Notes under the pieces: generated by a model | The model's input: the letters and a program-made list of their open reading frames with translations, nothing else | Told to the model about the DNA's origin: nothing | Databases searched by the model: none | Made by a program: the position numbers and the translations under genes | In this document: piece by piece, positions 37,856 to 41,537 of the stretch | How the letters are laid out: each line of letters begins with the position of its first letter | Position numbering within the stretch: the first letter of the stretch is position 1 | Assembly: GCA_041576165.1 (NCBI GenBank) | Contig: JBFGLM010000038.1 | Coordinates: 1 to 46,397, forward strand | Direction: 5' to 3' | DNA: 46,397 nucleotides | DNA from: Acidimicrobiia bacterium | GTDB lineage: Bacteria; Actinomycetota; Acidimicrobiia; Spongiisociales; Spongiisociaceae

Positions 37856-37922
37856 CGGACACGTGGTACGTGTCGTAACCCGGCGTCAACCGGTCTGGGG
37901 ACTGCGGCAGGTGCCGTCTCGA

Positions 37923-38075
37923 TCACGCCAGCACCGGCAGCCCACAGTCGACGCACAGGATCCCTTCCGTCTCCACAATGACGTCTTCGATGTGGGTGCC
38001 GCACGCTGCGCACATGCAGTCGAGTTCCAGTTCGACGGCGCCGAAACGTTCGGTGAGTTCTGTCAGCTCTGGCAT
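37923..38075 (-). CDS. 50-aa putative zinc-ribbon microprotein
   Basis: MPELTELTERFGAVELELDCMCAACGTHIEDVIVETEGILCVDCGLPVLA contains two CxxCG knuckles; TACGGT -10-like hexamer 7 nt before the ATG. Confidence 0.6.
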   Translation of the reverse strand: MPELTELTERFGAVELELDCMCAACGTHIEDVIVETEGILCVDCGLPVLA

Positions 38076-38112
38076 GGGGGTCACCGTACCGTGGAGGTGT
38101 GACAGACCTGTG

Positions 38113-39342
38113 TCAATCGTGGGCTTTGGGCACCACGTGAATTCGGGTGATCCGCCTGCCACTCAGGCCGGTGACGCGGAGTATCGCCGTCTCGACCTCA
38201 ACCTGATCACCGATGCCCGGGATCTGGCCGGCAAGCGCCATGAACAGGCCGGCCGCCGTGTTCCAATCTCCGTCCGGCAATTCGCCCACCAGGTCGATCA
38301 GATCCTCGACCGGAATGTTCCCCGCCACCGACCACCCTTTGGCGGTGCGGCGGATCGGCTCGTCGAGTTCGTCTTCGCTCACATTTCCCAACAGCTGCTC
38401 GGTGATGTCCTCGATCGTCACCAGCCCGGCCGTGCCGCCGTATTCGTCCACAACGATCGCCAGATGCCGCCGTTCGGCCTGCATGGTCGTCAACAGAGAC
38501 AGGATGCCTTTGGACTCCGGCACGACAAGCACATCCCGTACCAGGCGCCGAACCGGGATGTCTGCGCCCCGGTGCCGCACCAGATCCCGCAGACGCACCA
38601 TGCCGACCACATTGTCGATCGAATCGTCGATCACCGGCAGCCGGCGGTGGCCGTGTTCCAGCGCCACGTCCAGGACTTCGGGGACGGTGTCGTCGGCTTC
38701 AACTGCGACGATGTCGGGGCGCGGCACCATGACGTCGTTGGCGCGCCGGTCGCCGAACCGGAAAGCGCGCTCGATGAGCTCTCGATCCTCGGTCGTGATC
38801 TCTCCCTCGGTCGCCGCCTGGTCCGCCAGGTGAAGCAGCTCATCCTCCGTGATGGTGGGTGAAGTTGTGACACCCTTGCCGGGCATCTGCAGGTCGGCGA
38901 CCCACACCAACGCCGCCACGGCCGGGCGGAGGAGTCGTTCCAGTGCGGCGACGGGCAACGCCACGCGCAATGCGACCATGTCTGAATGGCGCACTGCGTA
39001 CGTCTTCGGGATTGCCTCGCCGTAGATGTACAGAATCACCGAGAGCACGACCGAAGCGAGTGTCACCCCCAGGTTCCCGAACCAGCGTTGGGCTAGAACG
39101 CCCGCCAGAGTGGCTGCGGTTATCTGCGCGAACAGCGCCGCCAGGAGGACGGTGTTCAGGACGGCCGGCAGTCGCTCCACCAACGCGACGAGCCGTCGGC
39201 CGCCCCGATGTGTCTCCGCCAGGGTCGCCGCTCGGATTGCGGGAACTCGCAACAGAGCGGTCTCGGCCGCCGACAAGAACACGGACGAGAGCATGGCGAT
39301 GATCAAACCAATGAGGGCCGGAAGGTCCCGCGAAAGATCCAT
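38113..39342 (-). CDS. Hemolysin-family CNNM/CBS/CorC membrane protein (Mg2+/Co2+ transport related)
   Basis: FLSAAETAL, GEAIPKTYA, DVMVPRPDI, HRRLPV and AIVVDEYGGTAGLVTIEDI.E motifs, then a CorC_HlyC tail. Confidence 0.92.
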   Translation of the reverse strand: MDLSRDLPALIGLIIAMLSSVFLSAAETALLRVPAIRAATLAETHRGGRRLVALVERLPAVLNTVLLAALFAQITAATLAGVLAQRWFGNLGVTLASVVLSVILYIYGEAIPKTYAVRHSDMVALRVALPVAALERLLRPAVAALVWVADLQMPGKGVTTSPTITEDELLHLADQAATEGEITTEDRELIERAFRFGDRRANDVMVPRPDIVAVEADDTVPEVLDVALEHGHRRLPVIDDSIDNVVGMVRLRDLVRHRGADIPVRRLVRDVLVVPESKGILSLLTTMQAERRHLAIVVDEYGGTAGLVTIEDITEQLLGNVSEDELDEPIRRTAKGWSVAGNIPVEDLIDLVGELPDGDWNTAAGLFMALAGQIPGIGDQVEVETAILRVTGLSGRRITRIHVVPKAHD

Positions 39343-39420
39343 GAACCCGGAGTCAAGCATCCGTTGGGGCATGACCGGGGCGCGGTCTAAGGTAACTTCC
39401 CCCGCAGCGAGGAAACCCAC

Positions 39421-40038
39421 GTGGACATCAGCTTCTGGATCGATCCCATATGACCGTGGTGCTGGGTGACGGCCAGGTGGGTCGTCGACGAGGTGCAGCC
39501 GGCCCGTGACCTTCACGTCGAGTGGGAACCAATCAGTCTGCTGTTCAAGAACGAGCCCGAGCCGGGCTCGAAGGGGTATCGTCGGTACCTCCGCACCCAC
39601 AAGCTGCTGCGGGTGCTGGAGTCGGTCCGGACAACCGACGGCAACGATGGCGTCTTCCGGCTGTACTGGGAGTACGGACGCCGGATTCATCACGACCAGC
39701 AGCTGTTCGACTTCGAAGTGTCCGACGCCCTTCGGGTTGTCGGACTGGATCCGGCACATGCCGACGCCTACGACGATGAGTCATGGGATGACGAGATCCG
39801 CAAACGGATGGACATCGGCCTGGAACTAGCCGGCGATGGCATCGGCACACCCATCATCGCCTTCGACGACGCGGATGGCGATCGGGTGGGAATCTTCGGC
39901 CCGGTCATCACGAGAGTTCCCAAGACTGATTTGTCACTGCAATTGTGGGATGGCCTGCGGGCAGTGATGACCGTTCCCGGTTTCTGGGAACTCAAACGGA
40001 CCCGCACGGAACGCCCTGACTTCGGACCGCGTCCGTAG
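39421..40038 (+). CDS. Rv2466c/DsbA-like thioredoxin-fold reductase, probable selenoprotein (UxxC, in-frame TGA at 39451-39453)
   Basis: GTG GAC ATC AGC TTC TGG ATC GAT CCC ATA TGA CCG TGG TGC TGG reads VDISFWIDPI-U-PWCW, in frame with ORF 39466-40038 (GIGTPII, FGPVI, PGFWELKRTR). GAGG lies upstream of the GTG and the real stop is TAG. Confidence 0.85.
39468..39486 (+). promoter_or_regulatory. Putative bacterial SECIS element
   Basis: GACGGCC-AGGTG-GGTCGTC forms a 7-bp stem (one G-U pair) starting 15 nt after the TGA, with a G-containing AGGU apical loop starting 22 nt after it. Confidence 0.65.
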
Positions 40039-40118
40039 CGACCTTCTCGCCCTGGCGCCGGCAACGGTGGCGGCGGCGGTTTTTCCCGCACGCATGGCGC
40101 TCCCCCGAGCCGTCTTGG

Positions 40119-41537
40119 TCAGAGCTGATCCCCTAGGTCTGGTCGACGGCGGCCGTATCGAGTTGCTTGCTCGAAGGCGTGGGCGAGACGGAGAACACCC
40201 AAATCGTCGCGCGGGGGGCCGACGATCTGCAGACCGACCGGCAACCCGCCAGGAGTGAATCCACCCGGCACCGATATCGCCGGGCAATTCATAACGGTGA
40301 CATCTGTACATGACCGCATCCAGTCGATGTAGGTGGGCAGGTCGACACCATCGATCTCGGTGACGTAGGGTCGATTGATATCGAAGGGCGCCACCTGAGT
40401 AACCGGACAGGCCAGGAAGTCGTACTGTTCGAAGAAGGCTCGGACCCGCTGGTAGAGCCGGCCGTGAAGCGCCGCCGCCCGGGCGTGATCGGAGAGCGAC
40501 AGCCGGCGGGCCTCCTCGATGTTCCACCGGACGGTGTCCTTCATCTCCTCGCCCCGCGTGTCGTAGAGCGGCCCATAGGTCGTCTCGAAGTTCCAGGCCC
40601 GCCGCACCTGGAAGATCTCGCGGGCTCCCTCCAGGTTCGGAGTGTCCTCGATCACAACTGCGCCCAGCGACTCGAGGACGTCGGGCACGGCGGCGAGGAC
40701 GGTTCGCACAGCCCGCTCGACGGGAAGCCCGCCGAGATCCGGAGACCAGGCAACCCGCAAGCCTCGGGGATCGCTGGCAAGCGGTGGGCCAAAAATCGGC
40801 CCGGGTTGTTCCAGCGCGATCGGGCTACGACGGTCGGGCCCCGCCTGCACAGACAGGAGCAAGGCAGTGTCCTCAACTGTCCGGCCCATGGGTCCTTCGG
40901 TGGAGAGGTGGGTCCAGGCCGCTTCCTTGGGCCACGACGGCACTCGGCCGGGTGAAGGTCGAAAGCCCACGACGTTGCAGAACGCGGCAGGATTGCGCAA
41001 CGAGCCGCCCATGTCCGAGCCGTCGGCCAGCGGCACCATCCCGGTGGCGAGAGCAACAGCCGCCCCGCCGCTGGAACCCCCACAGGTCTTGGAGAGGTCA
41101 TACGGATTGGCGGTGGAGCCGAATACTGCGTTGAAGGTCTGCGAACCGGCGCCGAATTCGGGCACGTTGGTCTTTCCGACGGTGATGGCACCGGCCGCCC
41201 GTTCCCGCTGCACGATCAAGGCATCGGCGGTGGGCACCTGCTCGGAGAAGATCGTCGAGCCCATCGTTGTGCGGATACCTGCCGTAGCGACCAAGTCCTT
41301 GTGGCCGATCGGCAAGCCATGCAGCGGACCAACCTCAGCGCCCGCCGCCAGGGCCTGGTCAGCTGCCGCCGCTTCCTCCATCGCATGGTCGGCGGTGAGC
41401 GTCACGATGGCGTTGACCTTTGGGTTGAGCGCCTCAATCCGCCTCAGATGCGCCGCCATCACCTCTCGAGCTGAGATTTCTGATCGGCGCAGCATCCCGG
41501 CCATCGTTACGGCGTCCCGGAAGACGAGGTCGTCCAT
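40119..41537 (-). CDS. Amidase signature family protein
   Basis: GPLHGLPIGHKDL, GKTNVPEF, GGSSGGAA, GSDMGGSLRNPA and GLPVGLQIVG motifs. Confidence 0.93.
   Translation of the reverse strand: MDDLVFRDAVTMAGMLRRSEISAREVMAAHLRRIEALNPKVNAIVTLTADHAMEEAAAADQALAAGAEVGPLHGLPIGHKDLVATAGIRTTMGSTIFSEQVPTADALIVQRERAAGAITVGKTNVPEFGAGSQTFNAVFGSTANPYDLSKTCGGSSGGAAVALATGMVPLADGSDMGGSLRNPAAFCNVVGFRPSPGRVPSWPKEAAWTHLSTEGPMGRTVEDTALLLSVQAGPDRRSPIALEQPGPIFGPPLASDPRGLRVAWSPDLGGLPVERAVRTVLAAVPDVLESLGAVVIEDTPNLEGAREIFQVRRAWNFETTYGPLYDTRGEEMKDTVRWNIEEARRLSLSDHARAAALHGRLYQRVRAFFEQYDFLACPVTQVAPFDINRPYVTEIDGVDLPTYIDWMRSCTDVTVMNCPAISVPGGFTPGGLPVGLQIVGPPRDDLGVLRLAHAFEQATRYGRRRPDLGDQL

What the first reader, a model, noticed from the sequence alone, without database searches (positions are those of the whole stretch)
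39421..40038. Hidden selenoprotein: Rv2466c-type (mycoredoxin/DsbA-like) reductase with a U-P-W-C active site
Seen: the ORF track starts this gene at 39466, but the frame extends back to GTG at 39421 through a single TGA (39451-39453). This gives VDISFWIDPI*PWCWVTARW and a 205-aa protein ending in TAG, with a hairpin right after the TGA. Established: M. tuberculosis Rv2466c, a mycothiol-dependent thioredoxin-fold reductase of similar length, has FWFDPLCPWCW, and selenocysteine typically replaces the N-terminal nucleophilic Cys of CxxC. The TGA sits at exactly that codon and the rest of the gene is intact. Inference: this is a Sec-recoded enzyme that standard gene callers truncate or label as a pseudogene. 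It implies selenocysteine machinery in an actinobacterial genome and possibly a selenium version of mycothiol-linked redox chemistry. DsbA-like selenoproteins have been reported from metagenomes; I cannot tell whether this subfamily has been described.
Basis: partly seen in the sequence, partly recalled or inferred. Interest (0 to 1): 0.92.

Follow-up and report, generated by a model that had tools for sequence, protein, structure and literature searches.

The report
Selenocysteine form of Rv2466c-type reductase

Summary
Window 39421-40038 (+) encodes a 205-aa Rv2466c-like (PF22234) thioredoxin-fold protein with one in-frame TGA (39451-39453), at the nucleophilic position of the C-P-W-C motif.

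- **Conserved TGA:** it sits in the same column in 45 homologous genes from 43 Acidimicrobiia genomes. Seventeen related genes have TGT/TGC (Cys) there.
- **SECIS candidate:** a 7-bp/5-nt-loop hairpin lies 14 nt after the UGA (39468-39486). It forms fully in 41 of 45 Sec forms and in 1 of 17 Cys forms, and synonymous sites are frozen exactly over it.
- **Machinery:** the genome has tRNA-Sec, selA, selB and a Sec-containing selD. TGA is its main ordinary stop.
- **Base call:** contigs from another sample and another study show the same TGA.

Error, pseudogene and code reassignment are therefore excluded.

"DsbA-like, UxxC" selenoproteins have been catalogued since 2005, so this is a new member of a known kind. 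I found no paper linking selenocysteine to the Rv2466c/mycoredoxin-2 cluster. NCBI records list such genes as truncated 189-aa "DsbA".

The mycothiol link is not established. MshD is present and MshA/MshB-like genes score below cut-off, but no MshC was found in any of 29 genomes.

The parts
39409..39413 (+). Shine-Dalgarno-like GAGGA, 7 nt upstream of the GTG start
   Evidence: Read directly. An SD-like purine motif precedes the start codon that lies 10 codons upstream of the UGA in 32 of 45 Sec forms. Its function is inferred.
39421..40038 (+). Full coding sequence of the selenoprotein: 205 aa, GTG start, TAG stop, one UGA read as Sec
   Evidence: Pfam PF22234 Rv2466c-like: E 2.2e-37, 129.4 bits (cut-off 27), profile positions 1-180 of 180. 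PF01323 DSBA: 29.9 bits (cut-off 25.6). Solved Rv2466c-family chains match at E 5.9e-33 to 1.4e-31 over residues 4-202.
39451..39453 (+). UGA = selenocysteine codon (residue 11), the nucleophilic position of U-P-W-C
   Evidence: TGA is in the same column in 27 of 30 orthologue loci and in 45 of 62 homologues overall, with TGT/TGC in the other 17. It aligns with the first Cys of CPWC in 4zil_A. Contigs of runs X4 and X5 cover it with 0 differences.
39460..39462 (+). TGC = Cys14, the presumed resolving cysteine of U-P-W-C
   Evidence: C14 is invariant in 46 of 46 aligned proteins. Its role follows from Rv2466c Cys22, as described in passages of PMC8280269.
39466..39468 (+). Internal GTG (Val16) that ORF finders and public annotations take as the start, giving a 190-aa product without the active site
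   Evidence: One search lists 39466..40038 as 190 aa. P0002, the window's own database entry, is 190 aa with 93% coverage.
39468..39486 (+). Candidate SECIS hairpin GACGGCC-AGGUG-GGUCGUC: 7 bp with a 5-nt loop, 14-nt spacer after the UGA (arms 39468-39474 and 39480-39486, loop 39475-39479)
   Evidence: All 7 pairs form in 41 of 45 Sec forms and in 1 of 17 Cys forms; mean dG is -9.0 against +3.0 kcal/mol. 97.3% of 294 cells are paired, and 2 pairs have compensatory changes, matched by 1 of 500 shuffles. Third-codon positions at nt 15-36 are at least 95% fixed except loop position 27, and at most 70% fixed from nt 39 on. It is part of the MFE structure in three local folds. SelB binding was not tested.
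39847..39852 (+). Thr143-Pro144, conserved G-T-P loop of the thioredoxin fold
   Evidence: G142, T143 and P144 are invariant in 46 of 46 sequences. Calling this the cis-proline loop rests on general knowledge of thioredoxin folds and was not tested here.

Best explanation
Window 39421-40038 is a real selenoprotein gene. SelB-GTP carrying Sec-tRNA(Sec) is recruited by a small stem-loop in the mRNA, most likely the 7-bp hairpin at 39468-39486, 14 nt after the codon. UGA 39451-39453 is then read as selenocysteine and not as a stop. The product is a cytoplasmic, DsbA-fold thiol-disulfide reductase of the Rv2466c / 'DsbA-Mrx1' (mycoredoxin-2) cluster, whose active site is U11-P-W-C14 in place of C-P-W-C. 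By analogy with Rv2466c (Cys19 nucleophile, Cys22 resolving), the selenolate of Sec11 attacks mixed or intramolecular disulfides. Cys14 or an external thiol then resolves the selenenylsulfide. The physiological reductant is unknown. Shown: the conserved UGA/Cys pairing, the Sec-specific conserved hairpin, the complete Sec machinery, family membership, and the base call. Inferred: actual Sec insertion, which of two possible folds SelB recognises, the catalytic roles of the residues, and the substrate and electron donor. The same hairpin occurs throughout a clade of 42 Sec and 8 Cys forms. This suggests one gain of Sec in Acidimicrobiia followed by several one-base reversions to Cys.
For: Sequence and family.

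Sec machinery in G000:
- tRNA-Sec at 79.9 and 72.9 bits (cut-off 47), also found by ARAGORN with anticodon tca.
- selA at 422.9 and 421.9 bits (cut-off 267.9).
- selB at 302.1 and 286.8 bits (cut-off 242.25).
- selD at 397.3 bits with its own in-frame TGA.

Conservation:
- 33 of 61 related genomes have a match; 27 of the 30 loci fetched (G000's own included) have TGA in the same column and 3 have TGT/TGC.
- In an even sample of 401 genomes of the class, 32 genomes have an orthologue of at least 52% identity: 23 with TGA and 9 without. The column was checked in the fetched loci.
- In total there are 45 Sec and 17 Cys forms.
- It is the only copy in G000.

RNA signal:
- Codon entropy at residues 12-22 is 0.39 bits (8 columns) against 1.04 elsewhere (122 columns), p = 4.4e-4. 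The 3 lowest of 123 sliding windows all lie at residues 12-24.
- All 14 Sec forms in named records have 7 of 7 pairs.

TGA as a normal stop:
- It ends 1551 of 2041 long open frames in G000.
- It terminates 11 of the 27 Sec-form orthologue genes themselves.

Base call: runs X4 (another sample) and X5 (another study) cover 39300-39477 and 39300-39480 with 0 differences.

Motif logic: the DsbA-Mrx1 cluster is defined by C-P-W/F-C with Cys19 as nucleophile (passages of PMC8280269 and PMC6178380). The Sec forms read U-P-W-C or U-P-F-C.
Against: - There is no protein-level evidence (no 75Se labelling, no mass spectrometry) and no RNA data. No RNA run was listed, which says nothing either way.
- Covariation for the hairpin is thin. 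Both compensatory pairs come from one divergent sequence, L085.
- An alternative fold (nt 2-5 with 30-33, plus 11-14 with 20-23) pairs equally well: 97.6% of cells, 0 compensatory changes. It also separates Sec from Cys forms. It is less stable in 43 of 45 Sec forms and does not explain the frozen nt 34-36.
- A 70-nt fold is not better than shuffles.
- No Rfam family matched.
- One distant Sec form, L089, forms only 2 of 7 pairs, so its signal must differ.
- Six of 66 Cys forms in named records keep 6 or 7 pairs, so the hairpin is not strictly diagnostic.
- The mycothiol partner assumed from Rv2466c is doubtful here.
Confidence: 0.9

Rival explanations
1. The TGA is a private nonsense mutation, a pseudogene or a sequencing/assembly error.
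For: Taken alone, a single in-frame stop 10 codons into a gene in a draft bin (161 contigs, 7.5% contamination) would fit this.
Against: The same TGA is present in 45 homologous genes of 43 genomes at 54-80% protein identity for the main clade. These include single-contig genomes. Contigs of another sample and another study also carry it, with 0 differences. Both flanks are under coding constraint, and a start codon lies 10 codons upstream.
Confidence: 0.01
2. The UGA is read through, but by something other than Sec-tRNA: near-cognate Trp/Cys/Arg insertion stimulated by the hairpin, or a genome-wide TGA reassignment.
For: No protein chemistry was done. A downstream hairpin can also stimulate generic read-through (general knowledge).
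Against: Reassignment is excluded: TGA ends 1551 of 2041 long open frames in G000 and terminates 11 of 27 of these same genes. The column alternates only with Cys codons (17 of 17 non-TGA forms), which is the Sec/Cys signature at a redox nucleophile. The genome keeps a full Sec machinery. selA is over its cut-off in 57 of 61 related genomes.
Confidence: 0.04
3. The real product is the 190-aa protein from the internal GTG 39466, as annotated. The conserved upstream 10 codons plus UGA would be a short regulatory upstream ORF.
For: Public gene calls use this start. The hairpin overlaps that start codon and could in principle regulate it.
Against: The truncated product lacks the whole U/C-P-W-C motif and the first beta strand (F-W-x-D-P). 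Both are invariant in 46 of 46 full-length family members and align with solved Rv2466c-family chains from residue 4. The Cys-form homologues are continuous ORFs through this region. The SD-like motif sits before 39421.
Confidence: 0.03

Closest known systems
Rv2466c of Mycobacterium tuberculosis (mycoredoxin-2; 'DsbA-Mrx1 cluster'; Pfam PF22234; PDB 4nxi, 5xur and relatives 4zil, 4wkw)
   Same: Same Pfam family, matched over the full profile. E about 6e-33 over residues 4-202 to the solved chains. Same F-W-x-D-P-x-[C/U]-P-W-C-W block and similar length. No signal peptide, because the active site begins at residue 11.
   Different: The nucleophilic Cys (Cys19 of Rv2466c, passages of PMC8280269) is selenocysteine here. 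The host is an Acidimicrobiia bacterium in which no MshC was found, so mycothiol dependence cannot be carried over. Nitroreductase or prodrug-activating activity is unknown.
Corynebacterium glutamicum NCgl2339 / NCgl2478 (C-P-F-C members of the DsbA-Mrx1 cluster)
   Same: The C-P-W/F-C signature: four Sec forms in one genus read U-P-F-C (L063, L066, L067, L071). Reductases rather than oxidases, according to passages of PMC8280269.
   Different: All-cysteine enzymes coupled to MSH/Mtr/NADPH. No Sec form has been described for them.
'DsbA-like protein (form 1)' selenoprotein family: UxxC, PF01323 / COG2761. First reported from the Sargasso Sea metagenome (9 sequences). Listed with the figures 41 and 45 in a 2016 survey table and included in the 2022 and 2026 catalogues.
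   Same: UxxC motif. The window's protein passes PF01323 (29.9 bits, cut-off 25.6). By the catalogue's own criteria it would be filed here (passages).
   Different: The catalogues name no PF22234/Rv2466c-type entry and do not mention mycothiol, nitroreductase or Actinomycetota (0 occurrences each). I could not fetch the reference sequences (NIP15863.1, AACY01178397), so whether they fall in the same clade is untested.
Sec-containing thioredoxin, glutaredoxin and Prx-like UxxC selenoproteins
   Same: Thioredoxin fold with Sec at the N-terminal, nucleophilic position of the CxxC motif, and Cys-containing homologues in other genomes (table in PMC13188914).
   Different: Different families. This one carries the helical insertion of the DsbA fold, inferred from its full-length match to the solved Rv2466c-family chains.
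Bacterial SECIS elements of the E. coli fdhF type
   Same: A stem-loop within the coding sequence a short distance 3' of the UGA, with conserved G and U in the apical loop (loop M-G-K-U-G here). [quoted passage not shown] The same genome's selD has a stem-loop at nt 11-29 after its UGA with loop GUCCCGG.
   Different: No sequence similarity to any Rfam model (0 hits at E <= 10). The exact fold is not settled. SelB binding is untested.

Membership tests
Bacterial selenoprotein gene (UGA recoded as Sec) | In-frame UGA conserved in orthologues, with coding conservation on both sides | tested here: met
   TGA is in the same column in 27 of 30 loci and in 45 of 62 homologues. The start codon and the F-W-x-D-P block are conserved upstream.
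Bacterial selenoprotein gene (UGA recoded as Sec) | Homologues carry Cys at the same position (Sec/Cys pair) | tested here: met
   17 of 17 non-TGA forms have TGT or TGC. All 45 full-length database relatives have Cys. All 6 checked matches outside the class have Cys.
Bacterial selenoprotein gene (UGA recoded as Sec) | SECIS stem-loop shortly downstream of the UGA | tested here: met
   The hairpin at nt 18-36 forms fully in 41 of 45 Sec forms against 1 of 17 Cys forms. Synonymous sites are frozen over it. 2 pairs show compensatory changes, matched by 1 of 500 shuffles. Which of two folds is used is inconclusive.
Bacterial selenoprotein gene (UGA recoded as Sec) | selA, selB, selC and selD present in the genome | tested here: met
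   all over the curated cut-offs. The bin is 96.5% complete with 7.5% contamination, but related single-contig genomes hold both selA and the TGA gene.
Bacterial selenoprotein gene (UGA recoded as Sec) | Selenium is actually incorporated into the protein | not testable with these tools
   Needs 75Se labelling or mass spectrometry.
Rv2466c-like / DsbA-Mrx1 cluster (PF22234) | Match to the family profile above its gathering score | tested here: met
   129.4 bits against a cut-off of 27, profile positions 1-180 of 180. The variants L066, L085 and L089 also pass.
Rv2466c-like / DsbA-Mrx1 cluster (PF22234) | C-P-W/F-C active-site signature | tested here: met
   U-P-W-C in the window and U-P-F-C in four relatives, with U in place of the first Cys. 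The signature is as stated in passages of PMC8280269.
Rv2466c-like / DsbA-Mrx1 cluster (PF22234) | DsbA-like fold (thioredoxin fold with helical insertion) | tested here: inconclusive
   Supported by sequence only: E 5.9e-33 to 4zil_A over residues 4-202.
Rv2466c-like / DsbA-Mrx1 cluster (PF22234) | Mycothiol (MSH/Mtr/NADPH) as electron donor | tested here: inconclusive
   MshD is over its cut-off (208.7 against 163.1). MshA-like scores 413.5 against 462.5. MshB/Mca-like score 192.6 and 154 against 224.35. The only CysRS-like gene is true CysRS (TIGR00435, 462.3 against 340), with no paralogue. MshC is over its cut-off in 0 of 29 genomes. Enzymology is not testable here.
'DsbA-like protein form 1' selenoprotein family (catalogue entry) | PF01323 domain with a UxxC motif | tested here: met
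   PF01323 at 29.9 bits against a cut-off of 25.6; U-P-W-C.
'DsbA-like protein form 1' selenoprotein family (catalogue entry) | Same clade as the published representatives (NIP15863.1; Sargasso contig AACY01178397) | not tested
   These sequences could not be fetched with the tools, and figures and supplements were not available.
Classical periplasmic DsbA oxidase | Signal peptide and C-P-H-C motif | tested here: not met
   The active site starts at residue 11 of the protein, which leaves no room for a signal peptide, and the motif is U-P-W-C. The C-P-H-C definition is from passages of PMC8280269.

The most novel reading that the evidence does not exclude
Acidimicrobiia run a selenium-dependent version of the mycoredoxin-2 (Rv2466c) reaction without canonical mycothiol. 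The sole Rv2466c-type enzyme of these genomes uses a selenolate nucleophile, while the pathway lacks MshC in all 29 genomes searched. The enzyme would then be coupled to a different, possibly undescribed, low-molecular-weight thiol or to thioredoxin. The family has also produced a mono-selenol U-P-W-A form with no resolving cysteine (L085). That would be a selenoenzyme restricted to a monothiol-type mechanism.
Probability: 0.3. Interest if true: 0.6.

Novelty: new member of a known kind. Interest (0 to 1): 0.45.

Why it matters
- **Annotation:** it corrects a systematic error. In public protein sets the Sec forms of this enzyme appear as 181-199-aa proteins without their active site: 75 of the best 120 relatives, with NCBI examples. 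Redox and selenium budgets of Acidimicrobiia, a class common in waters and soils, are therefore under-counted.
- **Biochemistry:** it links selenocysteine to the Rv2466c / DsbA-Mrx1 reductase cluster. That cluster has so far been studied only as cysteine enzymes tied to mycothiol.
- **Natural experiment:** Sec and Cys orthologues occur within single genera, including a Cys form that still carries the hairpin. They offer a direct comparison of Se against S at a DsbA-fold nucleophile.
- **Open question:** what thiol system these bacteria use, given MshD and MshA/MshB-like genes but no MshC.
- **Method:** the compact, strongly conserved hairpin could seed a lineage-specific SECIS model for finding further selenoproteins in this class.

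Tried and rejected
- **Fold of 70 nt after the UGA:** MFE -26.5 against a shuffle mean of -29.3, z = +0.83. A long structure was rejected; only the local hairpin is supported.
- **Rfam scan of 39380-39560 at E <= 10:** 0 matches.
- **Co-occurrence of the Sec form with selA:** uninformative. selA is over its cut-off in 57 of 61 relatives, including the three Cys-form genomes G002, G008 and G010.
- **Conserved neighbours or an operon partner:** none. 0 of 29 other orthologue loci share the flanking ORFs within about 1.5 kb. The apparent conservation of the 548-aa minus-strand ORF 38113-39759 (28 loci) is the antisense shadow of this gene. Upstream ORFs 37978-38862 and 38943-39302 have no Pfam match.
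- **Promoter and terminator scan of 39150-40250:** 0 promoter-like sites. The 1 terminator-like site is on the minus strand inside the gene, which is within the shuffle expectation of 0.7.
- **RNA evidence:** no RNA holder was listed.
- **Sequencing runs not laid:** X6-X10 hold only small shares of the sampled words. X6 was laid and covers only the conserved segment. No habitat claim is made.
- **RNAalifold's alternative fold:** kept as not excluded.
- **Literature on mycothiol in Acidimicrobiales:** only an annotated MSH-dependent formaldehyde dehydrogenase gene (passages of PMC4337565). This is not evidence that the thiol is made.
- **Paper searches.** Only listings and 'find' passages were read, never whole texts.
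  - 'Rv2466c' + 'selenocysteine': 0 papers.
  - 'Rv2466c' + 'selenoprotein': 0 papers.
  - 'Acidimicrobi' + 'selenoprotein': 3 papers. The relevant one, the Actinomarina preprint, has 0 mentions of DsbA or Rv2466c.
  - Supplements were closed, and the preprint's supplementary tables may list this family.
- **Sampling bias in the named-genome scan:** it used the peptide pattern DPICPWCW, which favours Cys forms, so its ratio of 14 Sec to 66 Cys is not a frequency.
- **Unpublished genomes:**
  - G032 and G043 are counted in the selA tally.
  - G032 is counted in the MshC tally, where it is the only genome with two CysRS/MshC-like matches, both below the cut-off.
  - G644 and G795 are counted in the phylum tally.
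  - No Sec-form locus and no sequence shown comes from any of them.
Full report
**The observation**

The sequence is as described. GTG is at 39421, the in-frame TGA at 39451-39453 and the TAG stop at 40036-40038. Read-through gives a 205-aa protein beginning VDISFWIDPIUPWCW. A mechanical ORF list starts the frame at the internal GTG 39466, giving 190 aa.

The read-through protein matches Pfam PF22234 (Rv2466c-like) over the whole profile: E 2.2e-37, 129.4 bits, cut-off 27. It also just passes PF01323 (DSBA) at 29.9 bits against a cut-off of 25.6. No NCBIfam model matches.

Against solved structures the best hits are four Rv2466c-family chains (4zil, 4nxi, 4wkw, 5xur), at E 5.9e-33 to 1.4e-31 over residues 4-202. 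The TGA aligns with the first Cys of their CPWC motif.

**Is the TGA real and conserved?**

The window is contig C38 of a 5.1-Mb, 161-contig assembly (96.5% complete, 7.5% contamination, 65% G+C).

- Relatives. A six-frame search of 60 related genomes plus the window's own found a match in 33 of 61. In the 30 loci fetched (G000's own among them), 27 have TGA in exactly the same column, after D-P-[ILV] and before P-W-C-W. The other 3 have TGT or TGC.
- Class. In an even sample of 401 genomes of the class, 163 have a homologue. Among the 32 genomes with an orthologue of at least 52% identity, 23 carry the TGA and 9 do not. I fetched 38 of these loci and checked the column.
- Totals. There are 45 Sec forms from 43 genomes and 17 Cys forms with the CxxC motif. 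Six more distant homologues have a C-P-x-[A/T/S] motif.
- Phylum. In an even sample of 401 genomes, TGA at the active site was seen only in members of this class. All 6 checked matches outside it have Cys, and their flagged TGAs are terminators.
- Names. Named records place the carriers in Acidimicrobiia, with titles such as Ilumatobacteraceae, Acidimicrobiaceae and Acidimicrobiales bacterium.
- Base call. Contigs from a different sample (X4) and a different study (X5) cover 39300-39477 and 39300-39480 with 0 differences.

Sequencing error and private nonsense mutation are excluded.

**Not a changed genetic code**

TGA ends 1551 of 2041 long open frames in this genome. It is the terminator of 11 of the 27 Sec-form orthologue genes themselves. 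One mRNA must therefore read one UGA as sense and another as stop, which calls for a local signal.

**The local signal**

A 70-nt fold is no better than shuffles, and Rfam has no match. The codon alignment is more telling.

- In 27 Sec orthologues the eleven codons after the UGA have almost no synonymous variation: ACG 27/27, GCC 27/27, GTG 26/27, GTC 25/27 and GTC 26/27. Codons before and after this stretch vary freely, and the Cys forms use other codons and even other residues.
- Mean synonymous-codon entropy is 0.39 bits at residues 12-22 (8 columns) against 1.04 elsewhere (122 columns), Mann-Whitney p = 4.4e-4. The three lowest of 123 sliding windows all lie at residues 12-24.
- The frozen bases form GACGGCC-[MGKUG]-GGUCGUC, a 7-bp stem with a 5-nt loop at nt 18-36 counted from the U of UGA (window 39468-39486). 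The variable bases fall in the loop.
- All 7 pairs form in 41 of 45 Sec forms, 6 pairs in 3, and 2 pairs in 1 (the distant L089). Among 17 Cys forms all 7 form only in L068, and the rest have 1-5. Mean energy is -9.0 against +3.0 kcal/mol.
- The formal count gives 97.3% of 294 cells paired, against 16-66% when the partners are slid. Two pairs have changes on both sides, matched by 1 of 500 shuffles. Both compensatory changes come from one divergent sequence (L085), so covariation is thin and the weight rests on the Sec-versus-Cys contrast.
- Third-codon positions are at least 95% fixed from nt 15 to nt 36 except loop position 27, and at most 70% fixed from nt 39 on. The constraint ends exactly at the 3' end of this stem.
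- RNAalifold proposed another fold (nt 2-5 with 30-33, and 11-14 with 20-23). It pairs as well (97.6%) but has no compensatory change. It is less stable in 43 of 45 Sec forms and leaves nt 34-36 unexplained. I favour the 18-36 hairpin and keep the other as not excluded.
- In named records all 14 Sec forms have 7 of 7 pairs. Of 66 Cys forms, 3 have 7, 3 have 6 and 60 have 5 or fewer.
- Summed contig depth in four metagenome runs peaks only over 39445-39502, for example 539 in X6 against 0-18 in the bins outside 39416-39502. Many community members therefore share this segment almost to the base.

**Machinery**

G000 has:
- two tRNA-Sec genes (79.9 and 72.9 bits, cut-off 47; anticodon tca);
- two selA-selB pairs;
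- a selD that itself has an in-frame TGA.

The two selA copies are only 53% identical, and the second set lies on small contigs. It may belong to a contaminant. This does not matter for the finding, because single-contig relatives hold both selA and the TGA gene. selA passes its cut-off in 57 of 61 related genomes, so Sec use is general in this order.

**Evolution**

I built a tree of 68 homologues with the active-site and hairpin columns left out. The main clade has 50 rows, 42 Sec and 8 Cys, with the Cys forms nested. The Sec label needs 10 changes on this quick tree, against a shuffled mean of 19.5, and 0 of 500 shuffles are as low. Well-supported branches alone force only 2 changes.

All main-clade Sec forms share one hairpin. 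L068, a Cys form inside a genus whose four other sampled members are Sec, still carries the intact hairpin. I therefore infer one gain of Sec followed by several one-base TGA-to-TGY reversions. The direction of change is an inference.

The Cys-form genomes G002, G008 and G010 keep selA, so those reversions were not forced by loss of the machinery.

The gene is the only family member in G000. It is also single in nearly all genomes of the family, so there is no cysteine back-up copy.

**Function**

Passages of PMC6178380 and PMC8280269 describe Rv2466c and the C. glutamicum homologues as a 'DsbA-Mrx1' cluster. It is defined by C-P-W/F-C, has no oxidase activity, and reduces S-mycothiolated and intramolecular disulfides with electrons from MSH/Mtr/NADPH. 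Cys19 is the nucleophile and Cys22 the resolving residue.

The Sec forms read U-P-W-C, or U-P-F-C in four members of one genus. Sec therefore replaces the nucleophile, as in other UxxC selenoproteins. The protein has no room for a signal peptide, so it is cytoplasmic.

The electron donor is open:
- MshD is over its cut-off.
- MshA-like and two MshB/Mca-like genes are the best family matches but fall below their cut-offs.
- The only CysRS-like gene is true CysRS, with no paralogue.
- MshC is over its cut-off in 0 of 29 genomes searched.

Flanking genes are a POR/DUF6537 oxidoreductase, an amidase and an enoyl-CoA hydratase. None is conserved next to the orthologues.

**What is known**

A 'DsbA-like' UxxC selenoprotein family was reported from the Sargasso Sea metagenome (9 sequences, COG2761; passages of PMC1088965). 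It is listed for a few genomes in 2006 (PMC1794560), with the figures 41 and 45 in a 2016 survey table (PMC5029168), and in the 2022 and 2026 catalogues as PF01323/UxxC.

By those criteria the window's protein is a member, so the kind is known. Several things appear not to be in print:
- The searches 'Rv2466c' + 'selenocysteine' and 'Rv2466c' + 'selenoprotein' each return 0 papers.
- The 2026 catalogue has 0 mentions of PF22234, mycothiol or nitroreductase.
- The Actinomarina preprint, which reports Sec machinery in another order of this class, has 0 mentions of DsbA or Rv2466c. Its supplements were not visible.

I could not fetch the catalogue's reference sequences, so identity of clade is untested.

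Public records hold the Sec forms truncated. Of the best 120 database relatives, 75 are 181-199 aa with 87-93% coverage. The other 45 are 204-223 aa, and all have Cys. That the 75 short ones are Sec forms is inferred from their length and start, not checked on DNA. NCBI names three of them 'disulfide bond formation protein DsbA', 189 aa.

**Verdict**

This is a real selenoprotein gene, correctly spotted. It is a new, widely conserved member of a known kind of selenoprotein, systematically mis-annotated, with an open question about its reductant. Interest is moderate.

Noticed in passing
L085 (G079:C1, second family copy in that genome), active site at L085:916-918 minus strand: A divergent family member reads U-P-W-A: selenocysteine with alanine in place of the resolving cysteine. 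It has a TGA terminator and a hairpin with 6 of 7 pairs, including two compensatory changes. It passes PF22234 at 127 bits. It may be a mono-selenol enzyme.
   Followed up: partly
L089 (G028:C223), TGA at L089:325-327: A distant (about 32% identity) U-P-W-C-Y member of PF22234 (90 bits). It forms only 2 of 7 pairs of the main-clade hairpin, so its SECIS must be different. It sits on a very long branch in the tree.
   Followed up: partly
L068 (G117:C1); L099, L103, L105 (Ilumatobacteraceae records): These Cys forms (C-P-F-C) keep all 7 pairs of the SECIS hairpin. L068 lies in a genus whose four other sampled members are Sec forms. They look like recent Sec-to-Cys conversions with a fossil SECIS.
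   Followed up: partly
G000:C1:171385-172317 (minus strand), outside the window: The genome's selenophosphate synthetase gene selD has its own in-frame TGA (...SFSHGAG-U-ACKLGP...). A stem-loop follows at nt 11-29 after the UGA with loop GUCCCGG.
   Followed up: partly
G000:C24:55512-58621 and C100:605-3619; tRNA-Sec at C1:33376-33466 and C145:1292-1382: There are two complete selA-selB pairs and two tRNA-Sec genes. The SelA copies are 53% identical and the tRNAs share 75 of 91 bases. The second set is on small contigs (8.9 and 3.2 kb). Either the bin holds a second Sec-using organism (contamination 7.5%) or the system is duplicated.
   Followed up: partly
G000 and 28 related genomes: MshD is over its cut-off and MshA-, MshB- and Mca-like genes are present, but no MshC was found. 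The only CysRS-like gene is true CysRS, and MshC is over its cut-off in 0 of 29 genomes. The low-molecular-weight thiol of this lineage looks unresolved.
   Followed up: partly
window 39445-39502: In four metagenome runs the summed contig depth spikes only over the TGA plus hairpin segment, and short 41-44-nt contigs end there. Near-identical copies in many community members appear to break the assemblies at this point.
   Followed up: no
window 38113-39759 (minus strand): A 548-aa open frame antisense to the gene appears 'conserved' in 28 other loci, but only where it overlaps the selenoprotein gene. It is a shadow ORF typical of high-G+C DNA, not a gene.
   Followed up: yes
window 37856-39420: About 1.5 kb upstream of the gene holds only ORFs without a Pfam match (37978-38862 and 38943-39302), and these are not conserved next to the orthologues. 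What this stretch encodes is unexplained.
   Followed up: no
G016:C47:91671-92852 and G006:C41:1511-2698: The CysRS-like matches of two related genomes are reported with one TAG inside the match. I did not look at them.
   Followed up: no
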